This document shows, one piece after another, positions 19,290 to 30,393 of a DNA stretch of 64,000 bases. The notes under the pieces are model-generated. The model was not told where the DNA came from. It saw only the letters and a list, made by a program, of their open reading frames with translations, and did not search any database. Origin of the DNA: Dehalococcoidia bacterium (GTDB lineage: Bacteria > Chloroflexota > Dehalococcoidia > Lucifugimonadales > UBA3495); assembly GCA_965220095.1 (NCBI GenBank), contig CBDCPD010000001.1:20700-84699 (forward strand). Reading direction: 5' to 3'. How positions within the stretch are numbered: the first letter of the stretch is position 1; each line of letters opens with the position of its first letter. The position numbers and the translations under genes were made by a program.

Positions 19290-19652
19290 TGCCTGTGCCT
19301 CGCTAAGTCGCTTTTCTAGCGTGAGAATATGATAAACACGGAAATATAGTCAATACACTCCCGACAGCCGGGCAACAATATAACCCCATATACACGGAGG
19401 TAGCCGGGGGTAGGCCATTTAGAAACCATCTCAAAACCCGCCATGCTCCCCAAAAGTCCGATCGTAGACCGGGTGAGTCGTGGATTCCCGCGCAGGCGGG
19501 AAGGACGGGTTGGGCGGGCCGCCAGTTTTGAGATAGTGGGTTTTAGTATGTGATGGTAGTCAATAGTCAAACCGGCCGACGACGCACGGTGTCGCCTCAG
19601 ATACTTCGCTGGGCAGGTCTATTCCGCACGCGTGTTCTGGTATGATGTAATC

Positions 19653-21278
19653 ATGCCACGTCGCCGCAGAGGCCATCAAGCATCCGCCGGCTTCAAGCCG
19701 GCGGAGCGGCCGCGGGTCGCCACCTACCAGACGCGCATTTCCGATTATGCAGGTGTGGATCGGGCAGCGGGAGATGCTGCGCTATCGGCGTATGCCGGTT
19801 TGTATGGCCAGGTGCAGCGGAAGTTGTTTGCTGATGTTGCGGCGGGAAGTTCGGCCACCTTGCTGAAGGGAGAGTACCTGCAACGGTACGGGATACCGGC
19901 GCGGCTGTTCAATGCGGTGCGGGTGTCGCTGGATGGCAAGATGTCGTCGGTGCGGGAGACGATGGCGCTCAGGCGGGGCAGACTGGAGCGGCGGATTGCG
20001 CGGGCCGAGCGGCAGGTTTCTGATGCCGCTGAGAGAGGCCGGTGGGATCAGGTTTATCAGAAGCGGCGGCGGTTGGCCAATCTGCGAAACCAGTTGGTTG
20101 GACTGGAAGCCGACATTGCTGCGGGCCGGGTTAGGCTGTGCTTCGGGTCGAAGCGGTTGTGGCGGAAGCAGCATCACTTGGAGGCCAATGGTTACGTCAG
20201 CCACGAGGAATGGCTCAGGGACTGGCGAGACGCCCGCAGCGACGAGTTCTTCGTGCTGGGCAGTCGGGATGAAACGGCGGGCTGCCAGCTGTGCGTCGCC
20301 AGTGTTGCCGATGATGGCACGCTGACCCTGCGGCTGCGTATGCCGGACTGTCTTGCCGAGCAGCACAGCAAGTACCTGGTCATCGAGGGTGTGCGGTTCG
20401 CCTACGGCCAGGAGCAGGTGCTGGCGGCGCTGCAGAGCAATGCAGATTTCGCTGCCCACAAGCGTGAGCATGGAGAAACGGCGGCGCGTGCCACGGAACT
20501 AGGTCAAGCCGTCAGCTACCGGTTCAAGCGGGACGCCAAGGGCTGGCGGGTGTTCGCGAGTACTGAGATGACGCACGTGCCGGTGGTTACAGACCAGCGG
20601 CGGGGCGTGACCGGCGTGGACCTGAACGCGGACCATCTCGCTGTGGCGGATACCGACGCTTCGGGCAACTGCATCAACGCTTGGAGAGTGCCGTTGGTGA
20701 CCTACGGCAAGAACACCAACCAGGCTGAGGCCCTCATCGGCGACGCGGTGGCCAGCGTCGTGCAGTACGCGCGGGAAGTTGGCAAACCCATCGTAATCGA
20801 GAAGCTGGACTTCCGACGGAAGAAGACTGCTCTGGAAGGTGAGAACCGCCGCTACAGCCGGATGCTGTCGAGTTTCAGCTATGGCAAGATCAAGGCGTAC
20901 TTCGTCTCCCGTGGTTATCGTCAGGGCGTGGAGGTACACCAGATCAACCCAGCCTACAGTTCCGTCATTGGCCGGGTGAAGTTCATGGAGCGATATGGGC
21001 TGACGGTGCACCAGGCTGCGGCCTTGGTGCTGGCCCGTCGCTATCTTGGTTGTTCGGAGCGCATCCCGCGCCGGTGGGTTTGTCCCGTCGGCAATGGCGT
21101 TCAGGTCGCCTTCACCGTACCCGTGAGGAAGCGAGTGAAGCACGTGTGGACGTACTGGGGCGCGATCTCGGGACAGCTGAGACCGGCGCTTGCAGCGCAG
21201 CATCGGCTGGGGAAGCGGAGACGCCGACCCAATCCGGTCCAGGCTGTCGTGCGGGCTGAGGCTCGCGGGGTGGCTTGA
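19653..21278 (+). CDS. TnpB-related protein (zinc-finger-less branch), stand-alone copy
   Basis: RuvC-I GVDLNADHLAVAD and RuvC-II PIVIEKLDF. The C-terminal INPAYSSVIGRVKFMERYGLTVHQAAALVLARRYLG replaces the zinc ribbon/RuvC-III motif. ATG 19653 (the ORF track uses GTG 19632). A truncated paralog lies at 53255-53705. Confidence 0.8.
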   Translation: MPRRRRGHQASAGFKPAERPRVATYQTRISDYAGVDRAAGDAALSAYAGLYGQVQRKLFADVAAGSSATLLKGEYLQRYGIPARLFNAVRVSLDGKMSSVRETMALRRGRLERRIARAERQVSDAAERGRWDQVYQKRRRLANLRNQLVGLEADIAAGRVRLCFGSKRLWRKQHHLEANGYVSHEEWLRDWRDARSDEFFVLGSRDETAGCQLCVASVADDGTLTLRLRMPDCLAEQHSKYLVIEGVRFAYGQEQVLAALQSNADFAAHKREHGETAARATELGQAVSYRFKRDAKGWRVFASTEMTHVPVVTDQRRGVTGVDLNADHLAVADTDASGNCINAWRVPLVTYGKNTNQAEALIGDAVASVVQYAREVGKPIVIEKLDFRRKKTALEGENRRYSRMLSSFSYGKIKAYFVSRGYRQGVEVHQINPAYSSVIGRVKFMERYGLTVHQAAALVLARRYLGCSERIPRRWVCPVGNGVQVAFTVPVRKRVKHVWTYWGAISGQLRPALAAQHRLGKRRRRPNPVQAVVRAEARGVA

Positions 21279-21444
21279 GCGGGGATCAGCTCGGTGTTCC
21301 CGGGTGAGAATCCCGGGCGGAGTCGTCTTGAACTGTTGGGGCGGCGGCGCGGCTCAGACCGCGTATTCAGGAACGGCTGACGGCAGTCTTGTAACTAAAG
21401 TCAACCATTTTTACAACGGTTCACCGTCCGCCCAGATTCTACAA

Positions 21445-21472: not shown

Positions 21473-21576
21473 TCCGCTCCCCACAGTGCTACACTCGCGA
21501 CTTGGGATCAACGTCCTAGAGTGCGGAGTTGGTTCCTGACCCTACGGGCAGCATCGCACAGGAGAATTGTCTCATC

Positions 21577-24468
21577 ATGATGTCATCTTGGTCGAATAGA
21601 CTACGCATTAACCCGTTGACTGCACTCCTGGTGCTGGTGGCGGCTGGTGTTTTTGGTTTCCTGAGCGGTGACTCACCGGCAGTTGCCCAAGGAACGCTTA
21701 CCGCTCCAACGAACGGCACGGCTGTCTCTAACACTGCAGAAGAACGCACCCTCGCCCGGGATGGGGGCGGCAACGCCGATTCATTCCTGCTCGTCGCGGT
21801 GCACAAGGAGACTTTCGACTACGAAAATGAGAATGTGCCTGATGGCGCTGCCCGAACCGGCACCGTTACGGGCCTGACCGGGGGTGCAGACTACCGGGGC
21901 ATCGTAGTCGCGCCGCAGGCAACCGCAAACGGCTTGGCAACACAGTACGGAGTTGACGAGCTGGTCGCCGTACAGGGCGTTGACTCGCAATGTTCGGCAG
22001 ACGATTACGATCGCGACGAGTGGGGAGACTACCCTGGAGCGCCGGATGACGCGACGCCAACTTGGACTCTACCGCCAGACAACGTGGCATCAACCGACAT
22101 CACCCTGGACCACCACGTCGCTTTGAAGGACGCTCATATCTCCGGGGGCTGCGGCTGGTCGTCGGAGATAAAGAATGATTTTGCGACCGACCCGGATAAC
22201 CTGAACCCCACGACCCGGTCATTCAACTCCAGCAAGGGAAGCCGGACCCCGGACCAATTGACTGGTATTGCAGAGAGCATCATCGATACCGATGACGAAA
22301 AATGCAACTACGCTACCCAGCATGATGCAGTCAAAGACGAATATGACCTGACGATGACGGCCAATGAGCAGGCTACCGTTACGGGATGGCTGTCGCTGTG
22401 CCCTGTAGCGTCTGAATTTGATGCCAGCACGGACAAAGCCGCGTTGGTGGCGCTATACAACGCCACGGATGGACCGAACTGGGAGAACAACAGGAACTGG
22501 CTAAGCGACCGGCCAATTGGGGAATGGTCACGCGTATCCACTGACGGCGACGAGCGCGTTACTGGGCTGTGGCTCGACGGCAACCAGTTGAGCGGGTCGA
22601 TACCGTCGGAACTGGGTAACCTCGACAACCTGCGAACGCTGTCACTCCACGGCAACCAGTTGAGCGGGTCGATACCGTCGGAACTGGGTAACCTCGCTAA
22701 CCTGGGAGTGCTGTGGCTCGACGGCAACCAGTTGAGCGGATCGATACCGTCGGAACTGGGTAACCTCCCCAACTTGCGAACGCTGTCGCTCTACGGCAAC
22801 CAGTTGAGCGGGTCGATACCGTCGGAACTGGGTAACCTCGCCAACCTGCGAACGCTGTCACTCCACGGCAACCAGTTGAGCGAGTCGATACCATCGGAAC
22901 TGGGCAACCTCGCCAACCTGCAACAGCTGTCGCTCAGCAACAACGAGTTGAGCGGGTCGATACCGTCGGAACTGGGTAACCTCGCCAACCTGGGAGTGCT
23001 GTACCTCAGCGGCAACCAGTTGAGCGGGTCGATACCGTCGGAACTGGGCAACCTCTCCAACTTGACAGGATTGAGCTTGTACGGGAACCAGTTGAGCGAG
23101 TCGATACCATCGGAACTGGGCAACCTCGCCAACCTGCAACAGCTGTCGCTCAGCAACAACGAGTTGAGCGGGTCGATACCGTCGGAACTGGGCAACCTCG
23201 CTAACCTGGGAGTGCTGTACCTCAGCGGCAACCAGTTGAGCGGGTCGATACCGTCGGAACTGGGCAACCTCTCCAACTTGACAGGATTGAGCTTGTACGG
23301 GAACCAGTTGACCGGGCCTATCCCCATTTGGCTGGGGAGCCTGACAAACCTAGAGGTACTGAACCTGGGTGGGAACCAGTTCACACCCGGGCCGATCCCA
23401 TCCACATTGGCTAGCCTCCCCAACCTGAAGGAACTGTATCTATGGGAGTGCCGATTGACGGGAACCATACCTCCAGAACTGGGTAATCTCTCGAGTCTGA
23501 CCAAGCTTCATTTGCATCAAAACGAATTGGGCGGGACCGTCCCGGCGTCGCTGGGAAGTCTCTCCAGTCTGGAGAAGTTAGGTCTCGGAGGCAACGAATT
23601 CATCGGGCCCATTCCGGCCTCTTTCGGCAATCTTTCCAACCTGACCGGGCTTTACCTGTGGGAGAACCAATTCACCGGGACGATACCGTCGCAGCTTGGC
23701 AACCTCACCAGCCTCACAGTGCTAAACCTCAGAGGCAATGAGTTGTCAGGACCTCTGCCGTCCGAACTAGCCAACTTGACGAATCTGAAAACGCTTTACC
23801 TGCATGAGAACCAACTTACTGGTGCGATTCCTATTTCGTTCGGCGCGCTGACCAACCTGGAACTGCTTTCCCTCAGAGATAACCAGTTCACTGGAGAAAT
23901 ACCAGTCGGGTTGGGATATCTGGACAAATTGACCCGCCTTGACCTTAGTCAAAACGAATTGACGGGAAGGGTACCGACCTCCCTCGGCAACCTCGCCGAC
24001 CTGGAGCGTCTGTACATCAGCAGCAACCAGCTGGAAGGCGCCATCACGGCGGAGTTAGGAAATCTACGCAAACTGACCATTTTGGATATCGACGGCAATC
24101 AGTTCACTGGCGAGGTGCCGGCTCGGCTGGGTAACCTGGCCAACCTCACGCATCTGGACCTGAGCAACAACGAGTTGGGAGGCTCGCTACCAGCCTGGCT
24201 GGGACACTTGGCCGAGTTGACCTTACTGGACCTCGATCACAATCAATTCGCCGGGCAAATACCCAGGGACTTGGGCAATCTGGCCAAATTGGAATATTTG
24301 GAGTTGGACCACAATCTACTTACGGGGCAGATACCGTTTGAGCTCACTTCGTTGACCAACTTGGAAAGACTGGAGTTGAGCAGCAACGGTTTCACCGGGT
24401 GCTTGCCCGCCGGCCTGCTCAGAGTGCCGGAGAATGATCTGGACGAACTGAATCTGCCGACTTGCTAG
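21577..24468 (+). CDS. Secreted FN3-like + DUF1524/His-Me nuclease-like + plant-type leucine-rich-repeat protein
   Basis: GGAG at 21561 precedes ATG 21577. Signal MMSSWSNRLRINPLTALLVLVAAGVFGFLSGDSPAVAQG. FN3-like module (GGGNADSFLLVAVHKETFDYENENVPDGAARTGTVTGLTGGADY). LDHHVALKDAHISGG...DPDNLNPTTRSFNSSKGSRTPDQL matches the DUF1524 pattern. About 25 24-residue LRRs (GNQLSGSIPSELGNLxNL). Confidence 0.85.
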   Translation: MMSSWSNRLRINPLTALLVLVAAGVFGFLSGDSPAVAQGTLTAPTNGTAVSNTAEERTLARDGGGNADSFLLVAVHKETFDYENENVPDGAARTGTVTGLTGGADYRGIVVAPQATANGLATQYGVDELVAVQGVDSQCSADDYDRDEWGDYPGAPDDATPTWTLPPDNVASTDITLDHHVALKDAHISGGCGWSSEIKNDFATDPDNLNPTTRSFNSSKGSRTPDQLTGIAESIIDTDDEKCNYATQHDAVKDEYDLTMTANEQATVTGWLSLCPVASEFDASTDKAALVALYNATDGPNWENNRNWLSDRPIGEWSRVSTDGDERVTGLWLDGNQLSGSIPSELGNLDNLRTLSLHGNQLSGSIPSELGNLANLGVLWLDGNQLSGSIPSELGNLPNLRTLSLYGNQLSGSIPSELGNLANLRTLSLHGNQLSESIPSELGNLANLQQLSLSNNELSGSIPSELGNLANLGVLYLSGNQLSGSIPSELGNLSNLTGLSLYGNQLSESIPSELGNLANLQQLSLSNNELSGSIPSELGNLANLGVLYLSGNQLSGSIPSELGNLSNLTGLSLYGNQLTGPIPIWLGSLTNLEVLNLGGNQFTPGPIPSTLASLPNLKELYLWECRLTGTIPPELGNLSSLTKLHLHQNELGGTVPASLGSLSSLEKLGLGGNEFIGPIPASFGNLSNLTGLYLWENQFTGTIPSQLGNLTSLTVLNLRGNELSGPLPSELANLTNLKTLYLHENQLTGAIPISFGALTNLELLSLRDNQFTGEIPVGLGYLDKLTRLDLSQNELTGRVPTSLGNLADLERLYISSNQLEGAITAELGNLRKLTILDIDGNQFTGEVPARLGNLANLTHLDLSNNELGGSLPAWLGHLAELTLLDLDHNQFAGQIPRDLGNLAKLEYLELDHNLLTGQIPFELTSLTNLERLELSSNGFTGCLPAGLLRVPENDLDELNLPTC
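22871..23302 (+). repeat. 216-bp tandem duplication (3 LRR units x2) inside the LRR gene
   Basis: 22871-23086 versus 23087-23302 differ at 2 positions by eye. Confidence 0.85.
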
Positions 24469-24837: not shown

Positions 24838-26367
24838 TCAGTTACGGCAGTAAGGCAAGCCGAGATCGTCCAGGTTGTTATTCTCAACGCCCTGGAGCTT
24901 CAAGGGTACGCATCCAGTAAACTCGTTGCCAGCAAGAAAAACGTGGGTCAAGTTTGGGAGGTCGCCCAGATTTTTCGGTATGGTCCCCGCAAGTTGGTTG
25001 TGAGATAGGGATATGCGCTCCAGGTCGCGCAGGCTTCCCAACTCTGCTGGGATAGTCCCGGTTAAGTCGTTGCCGTTGAGGTACAGGCGTTGCAAATTGG
25101 AGAGGTTGCCCAGCCACGCGGGCACGGGACCGGTTAGTCGGTTGCCGCTCAAGGCCAATTGTTCCAGGTTTCTGAATTTTGCCAACCAACCAGGCACCGA
25201 GCCCACCAGCCGGTTATTGTGCAGGTACAACATTTCAAGATTAGTCAAGCTACTCAACTCGTTCGGGATCTCGCCCGTCAGTTGGTTGCTGCTAAGGCGC
25301 AGCTGTTTCAGACTAATCAGATTACCCAGTTCCGACGGTATCCTCCCGCCGAGGGCGTTGTCGGCAAGGCGCAACTGTTCCAGACTGGTTAGATCACCCA
25401 GTTCCGGGGGTATCCTCCCATACAGATGATTGTCGAAGAGGTCCAGATACTTCAGGTTGGTGAGACGGGCCAGCTCGGGCGGTATCGCGCCGAACCGCGA
25501 GGTACGCGCGAGACCCAATTGTTCGAGGGTGGTCATATCGGCCAGCCAAGTCGGTATGTCACCGGCCGCCAACGGGTTCACCGAGAGGTTCAGGTGCGTC
25601 AGTCTGTTCAGATTGGCTAACTCTGGCGGTATCTCGCCGGTCAGTTCGTTAAGTCCCAGCCAAAGAACTTCCAGGTTGCCCAAACTTCCAAGACCCGCCG
25701 GGATGTCGCCATGCAGCTGATTATCCCAGAGTGACAGACGCGTCAAACCCGTGAGATGCGCCAACTCTGGGGGTATGGGGCCGGTCAAACCGTTTTTCTC
25801 GAGATTGAGTTCGGTAACCCTGCCTGCGGCGTCAACGGTCACCCCATGCCATTGTCGCATTGGAGCATCCCCGAGCCAGCCGGCGTTTTCAATCCAGTCG
25901 TCTCCGCGCGTCGCGTGGTAGAAAGTCTCCAGAACGTCGCGGTCGGTTACCGGTGACGTGGGCGCGGCGGTTGCCGAGGGCGGTGTGGTCGCAGTGGGCG
26001 CCGGCGCTGGGATCGGCGTTGGCGCGGCCACTGTAGGCGTAGGCACAGGTGGATTCGTGGGTGTTGGTGTGGGCCGAGCGGTACGGGTCGGTACAGGAGT
26101 ATCCATACGCACCGGATGGACCGTGGGAATCATCATAGGCGTGTGAATGGGTGTCGCAATCGGGATAGGAGTGGTTGTGTGGACCCTGGCCGCAGGTCCT
26201 GGTTCAATCCGGTCCGATAAGGTCGGCGTGGGCGGCTGCGTGGGGATTGTGGTGGCCGTGGGGACGGGTGTTTCCGTGGGAGCGGGTGGCGGGGGCTGCA
26301 TGGAGCAGGCCATGACGAGAATCAGTGCCACGCCAACGACAGATGCGGCCACGGCGGATTTACCCAA
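24838..26367 (-). CDS. Lipoprotein with Pro/Thr-rich linker and plant-type LRR domain
   Basis: Lipobox LILVMAC, followed by ~130 aa of P/T-rich linker. LRR N-cap DRDVLETFYHATRGDDWIENAGWL, then ~13 24-residue LRRs. The C-terminal cap GCVPLKLQGVENNNLDDLGLPYC parallels GCLPAGLLRVPENDLDELNLPTC of 21577-24468. Confidence 0.85.
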   Translation of the reverse strand: MGKSAVAASVVGVALILVMACSMQPPPPAPTETPVPTATTIPTQPPTPTLSDRIEPGPAARVHTTTPIPIATPIHTPMMIPTVHPVRMDTPVPTRTARPTPTPTNPPVPTPTVAAPTPIPAPAPTATTPPSATAAPTSPVTDRDVLETFYHATRGDDWIENAGWLGDAPMRQWHGVTVDAAGRVTELNLEKNGLTGPIPPELAHLTGLTRLSLWDNQLHGDIPAGLGSLGNLEVLWLGLNELTGEIPPELANLNRLTHLNLSVNPLAAGDIPTWLADMTTLEQLGLARTSRFGAIPPELARLTNLKYLDLFDNHLYGRIPPELGDLTSLEQLRLADNALGGRIPSELGNLISLKQLRLSSNQLTGEIPNELSSLTNLEMLYLHNNRLVGSVPGWLAKFRNLEQLALSGNRLTGPVPAWLGNLSNLQRLYLNGNDLTGTIPAELGSLRDLERISLSHNQLAGTIPKNLGDLPNLTHVFLAGNEFTGCVPLKLQGVENNNLDDLGLPYCRN

Positions 26368-28785: not shown

Positions 28786-30393
28786 TTATTCGTAGCCGAA
28801 CCGCGGGAAGAGGTCGTGGGACGGCCAGGTTGTTACCGAGTCAATCGCGTCCCGCATCAATCGGACGCGATCACTCTGAAAATCGGAATGCTGCGCCGAC
28901 TTGGAGTTGAAAAGAAGGGCCCAGGTCACGCCATCATGTGTTCGCCGGATCTGGGAAGCGGCACCCGGCAAGCTCCCACCATGCGACCACCTGAGGCTGT
29001 CCCCGACGGGTCGGACCGTCCATCCCATGGCATAGTAATGAGTGGTGTCCCGCAGGGGCGGGTCGTGGCGGGAAAACATCAGATCCACCGTTTCCGGCAA
29101 TAATGGAGACGGCGGCCGACTGCCATCCAAGGCGGACACCAACCGGACCAGGTCCACCGCCGACCCGATCCAGCCGCCCGACGAGTCTTTGCCCCTGACG
29201 TAAAAGCCGCCGTAGGGCCAGGGTACCCGCTCCGGTCCGTCTGGAAATACGGATCGGACTCGGCGATTGGCATCGTGGTAGTAATACCTGACCTCACCAT
29301 CGGCGCGGTCGTCCAGCAGGGAACCGCCGATTTGCATGCTCCCAATCAAGGTCGGTGCCAGGATGTGCTCCGTTATGTAGGTTTCGTAATCCTGGCCGGT
29401 TTTCTTCTTGATTATTCTCCCCAGGACGCAGTAGCCGAAATTTGCGTAGGCGTACCGGGTACCCGGGTCAAAGTCGAGGGGCTGCCCCAGCATGAAATGG
29501 ATCACGTCCGAGCATGAAATTGGCTCGGCAGCCCCAGTTTCGCGAGCTATTCGAGCCGGAGCCCACGTCGGATCAAAGCCAGCGACTTCCTTGTCCCAAC
29601 CGCCGGCGTGGTGCAGCAGATGGCGCACGGTGATCTGGTCTATCCTGGGATCTCGGGAAGCGCCCTCCGGCTCACTGAAATCGGAGAGTATCTCAAAGGC
29701 CTTTTCGTCCAGGTCCAGTTTGCCGTCTTCCACCAGCTTGAGTATGGCGACCGCCGTGACCTGTTTGGAGAGGCTCGCTATGCGGAACAGGGAATCGGGC
29801 TGCACGGGTTCCTGGTTTTCGATGTCGGCCAGGCCATAACCCCTGGCGAATACCAGTCGACCGTCTTTGACTATGGCAAGAGCACCTCCGGGCAGGTTGT
29901 ATCGGTGCATGAGGTTAGCCACGAGCCGGTCGAAAGCCTCCATGCCAACCACTTCGGGCCCGGTTTGTATCGAACCGTAGGGTCCCAGTGGGACCGGAGT
30001 CGCCGTCGGGGCAGGGGTGGGCGTAGGCGATATGGTAAGGGCGGGCATTGGCGCCAACGTCGGCTTGGGTGTCGGTGTGGGACCTGGTGTTGGGGTTGAC
30101 GGCACTGTCGGTTCCGGAATGGGCGTGTCAGCGGCCACTGGCGGCCGTTCCGACGTCGCGTTCGCCGGTGGCTCTGGCGTCGGTGTTGGCGACGTAGCAG
30201 CGACAGGAGTCGGTGTAGCCGCGGGTGCCGGAGCGACCGTAACCGTCGGTGAAAGCGGCGCCTCGGTGGGTTCACCAGCTATTGCACCAGTCGTCGCAGG
30301 TTCGGGCTGGGTGCAGCCGGGGAGTTGCAGGACAATGGTGAGGGCAACTACTGCCATGACGCCGCCGATCGAGTTTCGCAATGCCAAAGTCAT
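28786..30393 (-). CDS. Lipoprotein, serine hydrolase of the beta-lactamase/PBP (class C-like) family
   Basis: LQLPGC lipobox-like signal with a P/T linker. S-x-x-K motif in [24 protein letters not shown]. Its stop lies 4 nt before the start of 26805-28781. Confidence 0.85.

What the first reader, a model, noticed from the sequence alone, without database searches (positions are those of the whole stretch)
21577..24468. Secreted fusion of an FN3-like module, a DUF1524 (His-Me finger nuclease-like) domain and ~25 plant-type LRRs
After the signal peptide and the shared FN3-like module comes DYDRDEWGDYPG...LDHHVALKDAHISGGCGW...FATDPDNLNPTTRSFNSSKGSRTPDQL. This fits the DUF1524/GmrSD-C-terminal HNH-like pattern (DH..P...A..SG...W....F.ND..NL......N..K). 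Next come an LRR N-cap and 24-residue LRRs of the plant receptor type (GNQLSGSIPSELGNLxNL). I do not know of a described nuclease-LRR exoprotein. Eukaryote-like LRRs in bacteria are often linked to host interaction.
Basis: partly seen in the sequence, partly recalled or inferred. Interest (0 to 1): 0.6.

Follow-up and report, generated by a model that had tools for sequence, protein, structure and literature searches.

The report
Exported nuclease fused to LRR array
An uncultured Dehalococcoidia bacterium, probably a sponge associate, encodes an exported protein that joins a small DNA-cutting-type domain to a long leucine-rich-repeat binding arm, a combination I found described nowhere, though each part is a known kind and no activity has been tested.

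Summary
Window 21577-24468 (+) is one intact 963-aa gene with five parts:
- a Sec-type signal peptide;
- an FN3 module;
- a 143-aa nuclease-like domain;
- a cysteine-free LRR N-cap;
- 25 full 24-residue plant-type LRRs, one short repeat and a two-Cys C-cap.

The nuclease reading is supported, but not by a simple Pfam hit. GmrSD_C/DUF1524 scores only 14-16.5 bits against a cut-off of 23. The link comes from four other results:
- A 30-member profile of the domain matches a paralog in the same genome at 98.4% probability (E 5.7e-15), and that paralog passes the Pfam cut-off.
- The D-H-H...N...N..K motif is invariant or nearly so across the family.
- The AlphaFold model (pLDDT 85) places His179 at the end of strand 1 and Asn217 in the following helix.
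- Its best PDB fold matches are the periplasmic nucleases Vvn and endonuclease I.

The domain is a distinct, four-cysteine, shortened subfamily. It occurs as a shuffled module beside proteases, CAP, Glug, phosphatase-N or LRR modules. Named genome records place it almost only in Dehalococcoidia/Chloroflexota MAGs.

About 32 orthologue clusters keep the same fusion with variable LRR numbers. None is named or characterised.

Most likely it is an extracellular, disulfide-stabilised non-specific nuclease held or aimed by its LRR arm. Activity, substrate and LRR ligand are inferred.

The parts
21560..21565 (+). Shine-Dalgarno-like AGGAGA, 11 nt before the ATG
   Evidence: Read from the sequence.
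21577..24468 (+). Whole gene, 963 codons plus stop
   Evidence: The start is fixed by orthologue N-termini.
21577..21687 (+). Signal peptide, aa 1-37, predicted cleavage AVA|QG, no lipobox
   Evidence: Read from the sequence. It is conserved in about 30 orthologues. No predictor was run.
21691..21981 (+). FN3 module, aa 39-135. The core Trp is replaced by Arg in this copy.
   Evidence: Paralogous copies in the window. Pfam fn3 hits 5 of 7 relatives. AF2 model pLDDT 69, and the Foldseek top hits are all FN3. The W-to-R change is seen in alignment A3.
21982..22410 (+). His-Me finger nuclease domain, aa 136-278. It is a shortened four-Cys subfamily of DUF1524/GmrSD_C. Cysteines: 139, 192, 243, 275.
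   Evidence: dN/dS is 0.25-0.32 against two orthologues.
22108..22116 (+). Asp178-His179-His180. His179 is the predicted general base at the end of strand beta-1.
   Evidence: Invariant in 30 of 30 family members. DSSP of the model places these residues at the end of strand 46-50 of the fragment.
22198..22236 (+). Asn208-Leu-Asn210 (strand beta-2) through Asn217..Lys220 (helix). Asn217 is the predicted metal ligand.
   Evidence: Conservation. The model has strand 80-84 and helix 85-91 in fragment numbering.
22411..22566 (+). Linker and Cys-free LRR N-cap (ALVALYNATDGPNWENNRNWLSDRPIGEWSRV...)
   Evidence: Recurs in thousands of bacterial LRR proteins. No LRRNT_2 hit.
22567..24417 (+). 26 LRRs, aa 331-947: 25 full units of 24-25 aa and one of 16 aa, of the plant-specific class
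22566..23277 (+). Recently expanded part of the array: 72-bp unit x 9.9 copies, and a 216-bp (3-LRR) unit x 3.3 copies at 91% identity
   Evidence: Tandem Repeats Finder. Repeats 5-7 and 8-10 are near-identical at protein level.
24400..24465 (+). C-terminal cap C-LPAGLLRVPENDLDELNLPT-C (Cys942, Cys963)
   Evidence: The same cap ends most orthologues.
19534..21420 (+). Upstream TnpB-like IS copy. It is context, not part of the protein.
   Evidence: At least 8 copies in the genome. NCBIfam TnpB-related hits.

Best explanation
The gene encodes an exported modular exoenzyme.

Export and spacer. After Sec export and probable cleavage at Ala37, an FN3 spacer carries the catalytic domain.

Catalytic domain. 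It is a compact beta-beta-alpha-metal (His-Me finger) nuclease of the extracellular branch of the DUF1524/GmrSD_C superfamily. His179 would activate water. Asn217, helped by Asp178 and Asn208/210, would hold a divalent metal. Four conserved cysteines would form disulfides, so the enzyme would fold properly only outside the cytoplasm, as in Vvn and endonuclease I.

LRR arm. The 26-repeat plant-type solenoid with its Cys-Cys cap would act as a binding arm. It would hold or aim the nuclease at a surface or ligand. Candidates are host matrix or cells, the bacterium's own envelope, or other microbes. The result would be local, sequence-independent cutting of extracellular nucleic acid.

What is shown: domain identities, motif conservation, fold, purifying selection, the modular spread of the nuclease module, and the variable LRR number.

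What is inferred: secretion, catalysis, substrate (DNA or RNA), disulfides, the LRR ligand and the ecological role.
For: Homology. The profile of 30 domain copies against the in-genome paralog C5:87721-88893 gives 98.4% probability, E 5.7e-15, over 130 columns. That paralog hits GmrSD_C at 40.6 bits (cut-off 23) and carries an Excalibur domain. This matches the putative extracellular nucleases of His-Me group 3 in PMC5714182. GmrSD_C is the only recurrent Pfam hit among family members, 12 of 30.

Catalytic motif. D43, H44, H45, N73 and K85 are invariant. N75, N82 and all four Cys are at least 90% conserved.

Structure. AF2 gives pLDDT 85 and pTM 0.78, with strand-loop-strand-helix around His179 and Asn217. 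Foldseek's top matches are Vvn (1ouo, 1oup) and endonuclease I (2pu3), probability 0.96-1.0, TM 0.48-0.50. Cas9 HNH and Gme HNH follow, much more weakly.

Selection. dN/dS is 0.25-0.32 for the nuclease part.

Conservation of the fusion. About 32 orthologue clusters keep the signal peptide, DHH and N..K motifs.

Module partners. The module is also fused to trypsin-like, subtilase, CAP, Glug and purple-acid-phosphatase-N modules in signal-peptide proteins.
Against: - The target's own Pfam score is below the gathering threshold (13.8-16.5 against 23 bits). A genome-wide PF07510 scan does not pick it up at E<=0.01.
- Fold-match E-values are weak (0.03-0.09), TM is only about 0.5, and the alignment behind the model has 9 sequences.
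- The subfamily lacks a 27-residue Cys-bearing segment of canonical secreted DUF1524 proteins. The consequence is unknown.
- No nuclease of this extracellular DUF1524 branch was found to be biochemically characterised.
- No anchor, ligand or conserved neighbour points to what the LRR binds.
Confidence: 0.62

Rival explanations
1. The nuclease-like domain is a catalytically dead binding or scaffold module. The protein would then be simply one more LRR adhesin or 'eukaryotic-like protein'.
For: The Pfam score is sub-threshold and a 27-residue segment present in canonical relatives has been lost. The module appears in many unrelated architectures, as binding modules do.
Against: The His-Me catalytic residues D-H-H, N, N and K are invariant or nearly so across 30 copies at 45-76% identity. 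dN/dS is 0.25-0.32. Degenerate copies do exist and look different: they carry stops or have lost the DAHxSG segment (L005, L007).
Confidence: 0.15
2. It is a polymorphic-toxin or effector nuclease delivered into competitor or host cells, with the LRR as receptor-binding part.
For: In many relatives the module is the extreme C-terminal domain behind variable N-terminal parts. The gene lies in an IS-rich, variable region.
Against: In the target the domain is internal. There is no translocation domain and no conserved downstream small gene; the next gene is convergent. Orthologue contexts differ. Four conserved cysteines suit an oxidising extracellular site rather than a target cytoplasm. NCBIfam matches to type III effector models (XopAE, XopAC, XopL) are LRR-only and well below their cut-offs.
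Confidence: 0.1
3. It is a nutrient-scavenging exoenzyme with no host role. It would free nucleotides and phosphate from dissolved DNA or RNA, and the LRR would merely keep it at the cell surface.
For: One relative joins the same module to a purple-acid-phosphatase N-domain and others join it to proteases. Sponge Chloroflexi are described as degraders of dissolved organic matter (PMC6306507).
Against: No nucleotidase, phosphatase or transporter genes are linked to the target. This reading is a sub-case of the best explanation rather than a true alternative, so its confidence overlaps.
Confidence: 0.3

Closest known systems
Putative extracellular DUF1524 nucleases (His-Me finger group 3 of Jablonska et al. 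[quoted passage not shown]
   Same: Same superfamily by profile-profile comparison. Same YDR..W ... D-H-x-V-x-L..AH.SG ... N..KG..PD ... C.YA...K...L...E...L..C pattern. Both are exported. Two such proteins are encoded in the same genome.
   Different: The target subfamily lacks a 27-residue Cys-containing segment, has its own Cys139-Cys192 pair and falls below the Pfam cut-off. It is embedded between an FN3 and an LRR array rather than standing alone or with Excalibur.
Vvn / endonuclease I (EndA, Dns; Pfam Endonuclease_1), periplasmic or secreted non-specific nucleases
   Same: Best structural matches. Both are disulfide-containing exported His-Me nucleases with an elaborate omega loop and a helical C-terminal part. 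That group also pairs with FN3, Big_2 and LTD surface modules (PMC5714182).
   Different: No sequence-level match to PF04231 and TM is only about 0.5. Residue-by-residue equivalence was not checked.
GmrSD / BrxU / SspE type IV restriction and defence nucleases (DUF262 + DUF1524)
   Same: They share the DUF1524 catalytic domain family.
   Different: Those are cytoplasmic and carry an N-terminal DUF262 NTPase/ParB-like domain. The target has a signal peptide and no DUF262. Three genuine long GmrSD-type genes lie elsewhere in this genome.
LRR 'eukaryotic-like proteins' of sponge symbionts (PMC6306507 and the references it cites)
   Same: Exported LRR arrays in Chloroflexi-type symbiont genomes, postulated to mediate host-microbe contact. 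One relative comes from sample SB0662, which also yielded sponge-type Entoporibacteria bins.
   Different: Those are described as repeat proteins only. Here an enzyme domain is fused to the repeats. I found no report of an LRR-nuclease fusion.
Modular surface nucleases such as ExeM/NucH/Xds, and the lipid-anchored SAR86 DUF1524 nuclease noted earlier in this scan (e1-4695648)
   Same: The principle is the same: an extracellular nuclease domain combined with Ig-like or binding modules.
   Different: Different nuclease families or partner modules (LTD, EEP, cupredoxin-like). None has an LRR array.

Membership tests
Pfam GmrSD_C / DUF1524 (PF07510) | Score at or above the curated gathering cut-off (23 bits) | tested here: not met
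   13.8-16.5 bits, E 0.008-0.054. Not found by the genome-wide scan at E<=0.01. Twelve of 30 family members hit, all at E>=9e-4.
DUF1524 superfamily (homology) | Significant profile-level similarity to a member that passes the cut-off | tested here: met
   hhalign gives 98.4% probability, E 5.7e-15, 130 columns, against paralog C5:87721-88893, which scores 40.6 bits on PF07510. A tblastn-type search gives E 2.5e-10.
His-Me finger (beta-beta-alpha-metal) nucleases | Catalytic His at the end of strand 1, Asn in or near strand 2, and a metal-binding Asn or His in the following helix | tested here: met
   D178-H179-H180, N208/N210 and N217 are invariant or at least 90% conserved. The model's secondary structure places them as expected.
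His-Me finger (beta-beta-alpha-metal) nucleases | Fold similarity to solved members | tested here: met
   Foldseek top hits are Vvn and endonuclease I (probability 0.96-1.0, E 0.03-0.3, TM 0.48-0.50), then Cas9 HNH and Gme HNH at low probability. Strength is moderate.
His-Me finger (beta-beta-alpha-metal) nucleases | Metal-dependent nuclease activity | not testable with these tools
   Needs a biochemical assay.
GmrSD-type type IV restriction enzymes | N-terminal DUF262 domain and cytoplasmic location | tested here: not met
   No DUF262 hit. A signal peptide is present.
Endonuclease_1 (PF04231; Vvn, EndA) | Pfam or sequence match | tested here: not met
   No hit at E<=10, nor in 30 members at E<=1. 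PDB sequence searches were empty of nucleases.
Plant-specific (PS) class LRR | 24-residue unit LxxLxLxxNxLxGxIPxxLGxLxx | tested here: met
   25 units at 24-25-residue spacing with this consensus.
Plant LRR receptor ectodomain | Cys-pair LRRNT_2 N-cap (PF08263) | tested here: not met
   No LRRNT_2 hit. The cap has no cysteines.
fn3 (PF00041) | Pfam hit and/or FN3 fold | tested here: inconclusive
   The target gives no hit. Five of 7 paralogs or orthologues hit, best E 1.4e-5. The model (pLDDT 69) matches FN3 domains at TM 0.6-0.76. The core Trp is replaced by Arg in the target.
Xanthomonas LRR type III effectors (NCBIfam XopAE, XopAC, XopL) | Score at or above the curated cut-off | tested here: not met
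   361.8 against 600, 224.8 against 450 and 119 against 500 bits. These are repeat-only matches.
Polymorphic toxin systems | C-terminal toxin domain followed by a cognate immunity gene | tested here: not met
   The domain is internal, the next gene is convergent, and orthologue neighbourhoods differ.

The most novel reading that the evidence does not exclude
The four-Cys nuclease module is an exo-domain specific to sponge microbiomes and exchanged between symbiont phyla. In this fusion the LRR arm would dock it onto host cells or matrix. The symbiont could then cut host-derived extracellular DNA, such as chromatin traps or mesohyl eDNA, to persist in the host. That would make it the first enzyme-armed 'eukaryotic-like' LRR protein.
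Probability: 0.12. Interest if true: 0.7.

Novelty: new variant of a known kind. Interest (0 to 1): 0.42.

Why it matters
Sponge-symbiont LRR proteins are routinely listed as 'eukaryotic-like proteins' with no assignable activity. This one carries a recognisable enzyme, so it offers a concrete biochemical handle. The nuclease can be assayed, and the LRR arm can be used as bait for its partner.

The work also defines a shortened, four-cysteine exported branch of DUF1524 that Pfam misses. Counts of DUF1524 in sponge metagenomes have so far been read as restriction or defence (PMC7848895). Those counts would not include this extracellular branch.

The practical value is modest until activity and ligand are known.

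Tried and rejected
- Direct Pfam and NCBIfam scans of the whole protein gave LRR families only.
- PDB sequence searches with the N-terminal region and with two profiles found no nuclease.
- A scan of JGI metagenome contigs with the domain profile found no relative.
- My protein-representatives query wrongly included the LRR N-cap. Most of the 5951 hits are therefore N-cap matches, and only about 45 of the best 150 carry the nuclease module.
- GmrSD restriction enzyme was rejected: no DUF262, and the protein is exported.
- Type III effector was rejected: scores are below the cut-offs and the matches are repeats only.
- Polymorphic toxin was judged unlikely: the domain is internal and there is no immunity gene.
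- Assembly chimera was rejected: about 32 independent orthologue clusters share the same domain junctions.
- ComEC-linked uptake nuclease was rejected: ComEC lies on another contig.
- One literature search on MAG names was wasted.
- Pfam gave nothing for the paralog's cargo or for the orthologues' extra C-terminal domain.
Full report
**1. Observation**

The window holds one long open frame, 21529-24468 (+). The real start is the ATG at 21577. It lies 11 nt after AGGAGA (21560-21565), and about 30 orthologues begin MM(P/S)SWSNRL. The product has 963 residues.

Residues 1-37 look like a Sec signal peptide, read by eye. They have Arg8 and Arg10, a hydrophobic core at 14-29, the site AVA|QG, and no lipobox cysteine.

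The LRR array starts at residue 331. It has 25 units of 24 residues (one of 25), a 16-residue unit, and a cap C942...C963. The units fit the plant-specific consensus LxxLxLxxNxLxGxIPxxLGxLxx. Pfam LRR families score E 1e-66 to 1e-89.

The first ten units are recent tandem copies. Tandem Repeats Finder reports a 72-bp unit x 9.9 copies and a 216-bp unit x 3.3 copies at 91% identity.

**2. Module boundaries**

BLAST against relatives cuts the N-terminal third into independent modules:
- Residues 1-135 are the signal peptide plus an FN3-like module.
- Residues 136-278 are the nuclease-like module.
- Residues 283-330 are an LRR N-cap.

Each module occurs separately in other proteins.

**3. The FN3 module**

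The target copy gives no Pfam hit. Five of seven paralogs or orthologues hit fn3, best E 1.4e-5. An AlphaFold model (pLDDT 69) is all-beta, and all of its listed best PDB matches are FN3 domains at TM 0.6-0.76. In the target the core Trp of 'TLxWxGG' is Arg. dN/dS is 0.49-1.8 against two orthologues, so this module is weakly constrained.

**4. The nuclease module**

*Direct evidence is weak.* GmrSD_C (PF07510, formerly DUF1524) is the only Pfam hit. It scores 13.8-16.5 bits against a cut-off of 23, and a genome-wide scan with that model misses the target.

*Indirect evidence is strong.*
- (a) An exhaustive HMMER search and a word-index search gave about 70 proteins with the module. An alignment of 30 copies at 45-76% identity has these features:
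  - D43, H44, H45, N73 and K85 are invariant.
  - N75, N82 and four cysteines are at least 90% conserved.
  - In the full-length protein these correspond to D178, H179, H180, N208, N210, N217, K220, and C139, C192, C243, C275.
- (b) The same genome encodes two exported canonical DUF1524 proteins.
  - One (C5:87721-88893) passes the Pfam cut-off at 40.6 bits and ends in an Excalibur domain.
  - This is the architecture that Jablonska et al. describe as putative extracellular nucleases of His-Me group 3 (PMC5714182).
- (c) Profile-profile comparison of the 30-member family with that paralog gives 98.4% probability, E 5.7e-15, across 130 columns.
  - The target subfamily lacks a 27-residue Cys-bearing segment before the core.
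- (d) AlphaFold on a 9-sequence alignment gives pLDDT 85 and pTM 0.78.
  - The strand ITLDH ends at His179.
  - A two-helix omega loop follows, then a second strand LNPTT, then a helix carrying Asn217.
  - This is the beta-beta-alpha-metal layout.
- (e) Foldseek against the PDB ranks the periplasmic nuclease Vvn and endonuclease I first (probability 0.96-1.0, E 0.03-0.3, TM 0.48-0.50).
  - Cas9 HNH and Gme HNH follow at low probability.
- (f) dN/dS for the module is 0.25-0.32.
  - Clearly decayed copies exist elsewhere: L005 has three in-frame stops and L007 has lost DAHxSG.
  - So an intact motif is not a given.

I conclude that this is a divergent, probably active member of the DUF1524 His-Me superfamily in its exported branch.

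**5. Distribution and architecture**

About 32 clusters at 90% identity are orthologues. They are 80-95% identical over residues 30-330 and have the same order signal-FN3-nuclease-LRR. Their length ranges from 529 to 1237 residues, mainly through LRR number. Some carry an extra C-terminal domain or a beta-lactamase-type domain. All come from ENA metagenome assemblies and none has a name.

The nuclease module alone, at 60-77% identity, is joined to several other partners. These include trypsin-like and subtilisin proteases, CAP, Glug and purple-acid-phosphatase-N, and other LRR proteins. It also forms the C-terminal end of short signal-peptide proteins.

How rare it is:
- Among one genome per species of 185,579 species, strict peptide patterns found 8 loci. 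Seven are Dehalococcoidia/Chloroflexota MAGs and one is a Gemmatimonadetes MAG, SB0662_bin_23.
- In a sample of 401 genomes of the class, 4 carry it, spread over three families.
- None was found in JGI metagenome contigs.

Habitat evidence is thin. Sample SB0662 also yielded sponge-type Entoporibacteria bins (PMC7883664). That other MAG names point to sponges is my recollection and was not verified.

**6. Context**

The gene lies in a variable region rich in IS elements and exoprotein genes.
- Large PPC/PKD, Big_2 and FN3 proteins lie upstream.
- Two TnpB-like genes and a DDE transposase lie nearby.
- A convergent 509-aa LRR protein lies downstream.
- Orthologue neighbourhoods differ and are also IS-rich.
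- No conserved partner, inhibitor or transporter gene was seen.
- ComEC lies on another contig.

**7. Mechanism**

The best reading is an exported, disulfide-stabilised, sequence-independent nuclease positioned by an LRR binding arm. Confidence is 0.62 for an active extracellular nuclease.

Rival readings:
- a dead binding module (0.15);
- a delivered toxin or effector (0.10);
- pure nutrient scavenging, which is a sub-case of the main reading (0.3, overlapping).

The LRR ligand and the ecological role are open.

**8. Comparison with the known, and novelty**

Exported DUF1524 nucleases, FN3-decorated secreted His-Me nucleases and LRR 'eukaryotic-like proteins' of sponge symbionts are each known kinds (PMC5714182; PMC6306507).

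The fusion of a nuclease with an LRR array was not found in any of the following:
- the His-Me architecture survey, which has zero mentions of LRR or leucine;
- my literature searches;
- earlier notes of this scan, which do record other modular or ComEC-linked exported DUF1524 nucleases.

I rate it a new variant of a known kind, with moderate interest at 0.42.

Noticed in passing
window 19534-21420, and G000 C2:13359-16798 (outside the window): The TnpB-like element upstream of the target has at least 8 copies (74-89% identity) in the genome. Its right end lies 62 bp from the target's conserved 5' leader. In a paralog it lies directly against the same leader. This suggests IS-linked duplication, or a shared insertion site, for a 'head cassette'.
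   Followed up: partly
window 21483-21981 versus G000 C2:16794-17289: A 'head cassette' of 5'UTR, signal peptide and FN3 (77-83% nucleotide identity, 59% protein identity) is shared with a second gene, C2:16888-18768. That gene's roughly 490-residue cargo is unrelated and has no Pfam hit.
   Followed up: partly
window 21748-21756 (residues 58-60, LAR): The target's FN3 has Arg where all six aligned relatives have the core Trp. FN3 dN/dS is 0.49-1.8, against 0.25-0.32 for the nuclease module.
   Followed up: partly
L005:5689-6426 and L007:5587-6795: The copy of the nuclease module in one Dehalococcoidia MAG has three in-frame stops. The copy in another lacks the DAHxSG segment. Both are probably pseudogenes.
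   Followed up: no
orthologues P0004, P0005, P0007, P0008, P0017, P0021, P0029, P0030, P0032, and P0014: Several orthologues carry an extra C-terminal domain ending ...IYGGATLPQEYREIIPR, with no Pfam match. P0014 instead carries a beta-lactamase-type domain. A separate beta-lactamase-like gene lies at window 28786-30393.
   Followed up: partly
G000 C4:136654-137133, C1:617380-617814, C1:2122892-2123305: Three long (625-1000 aa) genes with full-length GmrSD_C matches (83-91 bits). They are presumably cytoplasmic type IV restriction or defence enzymes, unrelated in role to the exported copies.
   Followed up: no
window 24838-26367 (-): The convergent 509-aa LRR protein shares the same N-cap, repeat type and Cys-Cys C-cap (44-47% identity to the target's array). 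It lacks the FN3 and nuclease modules.
   Followed up: partly
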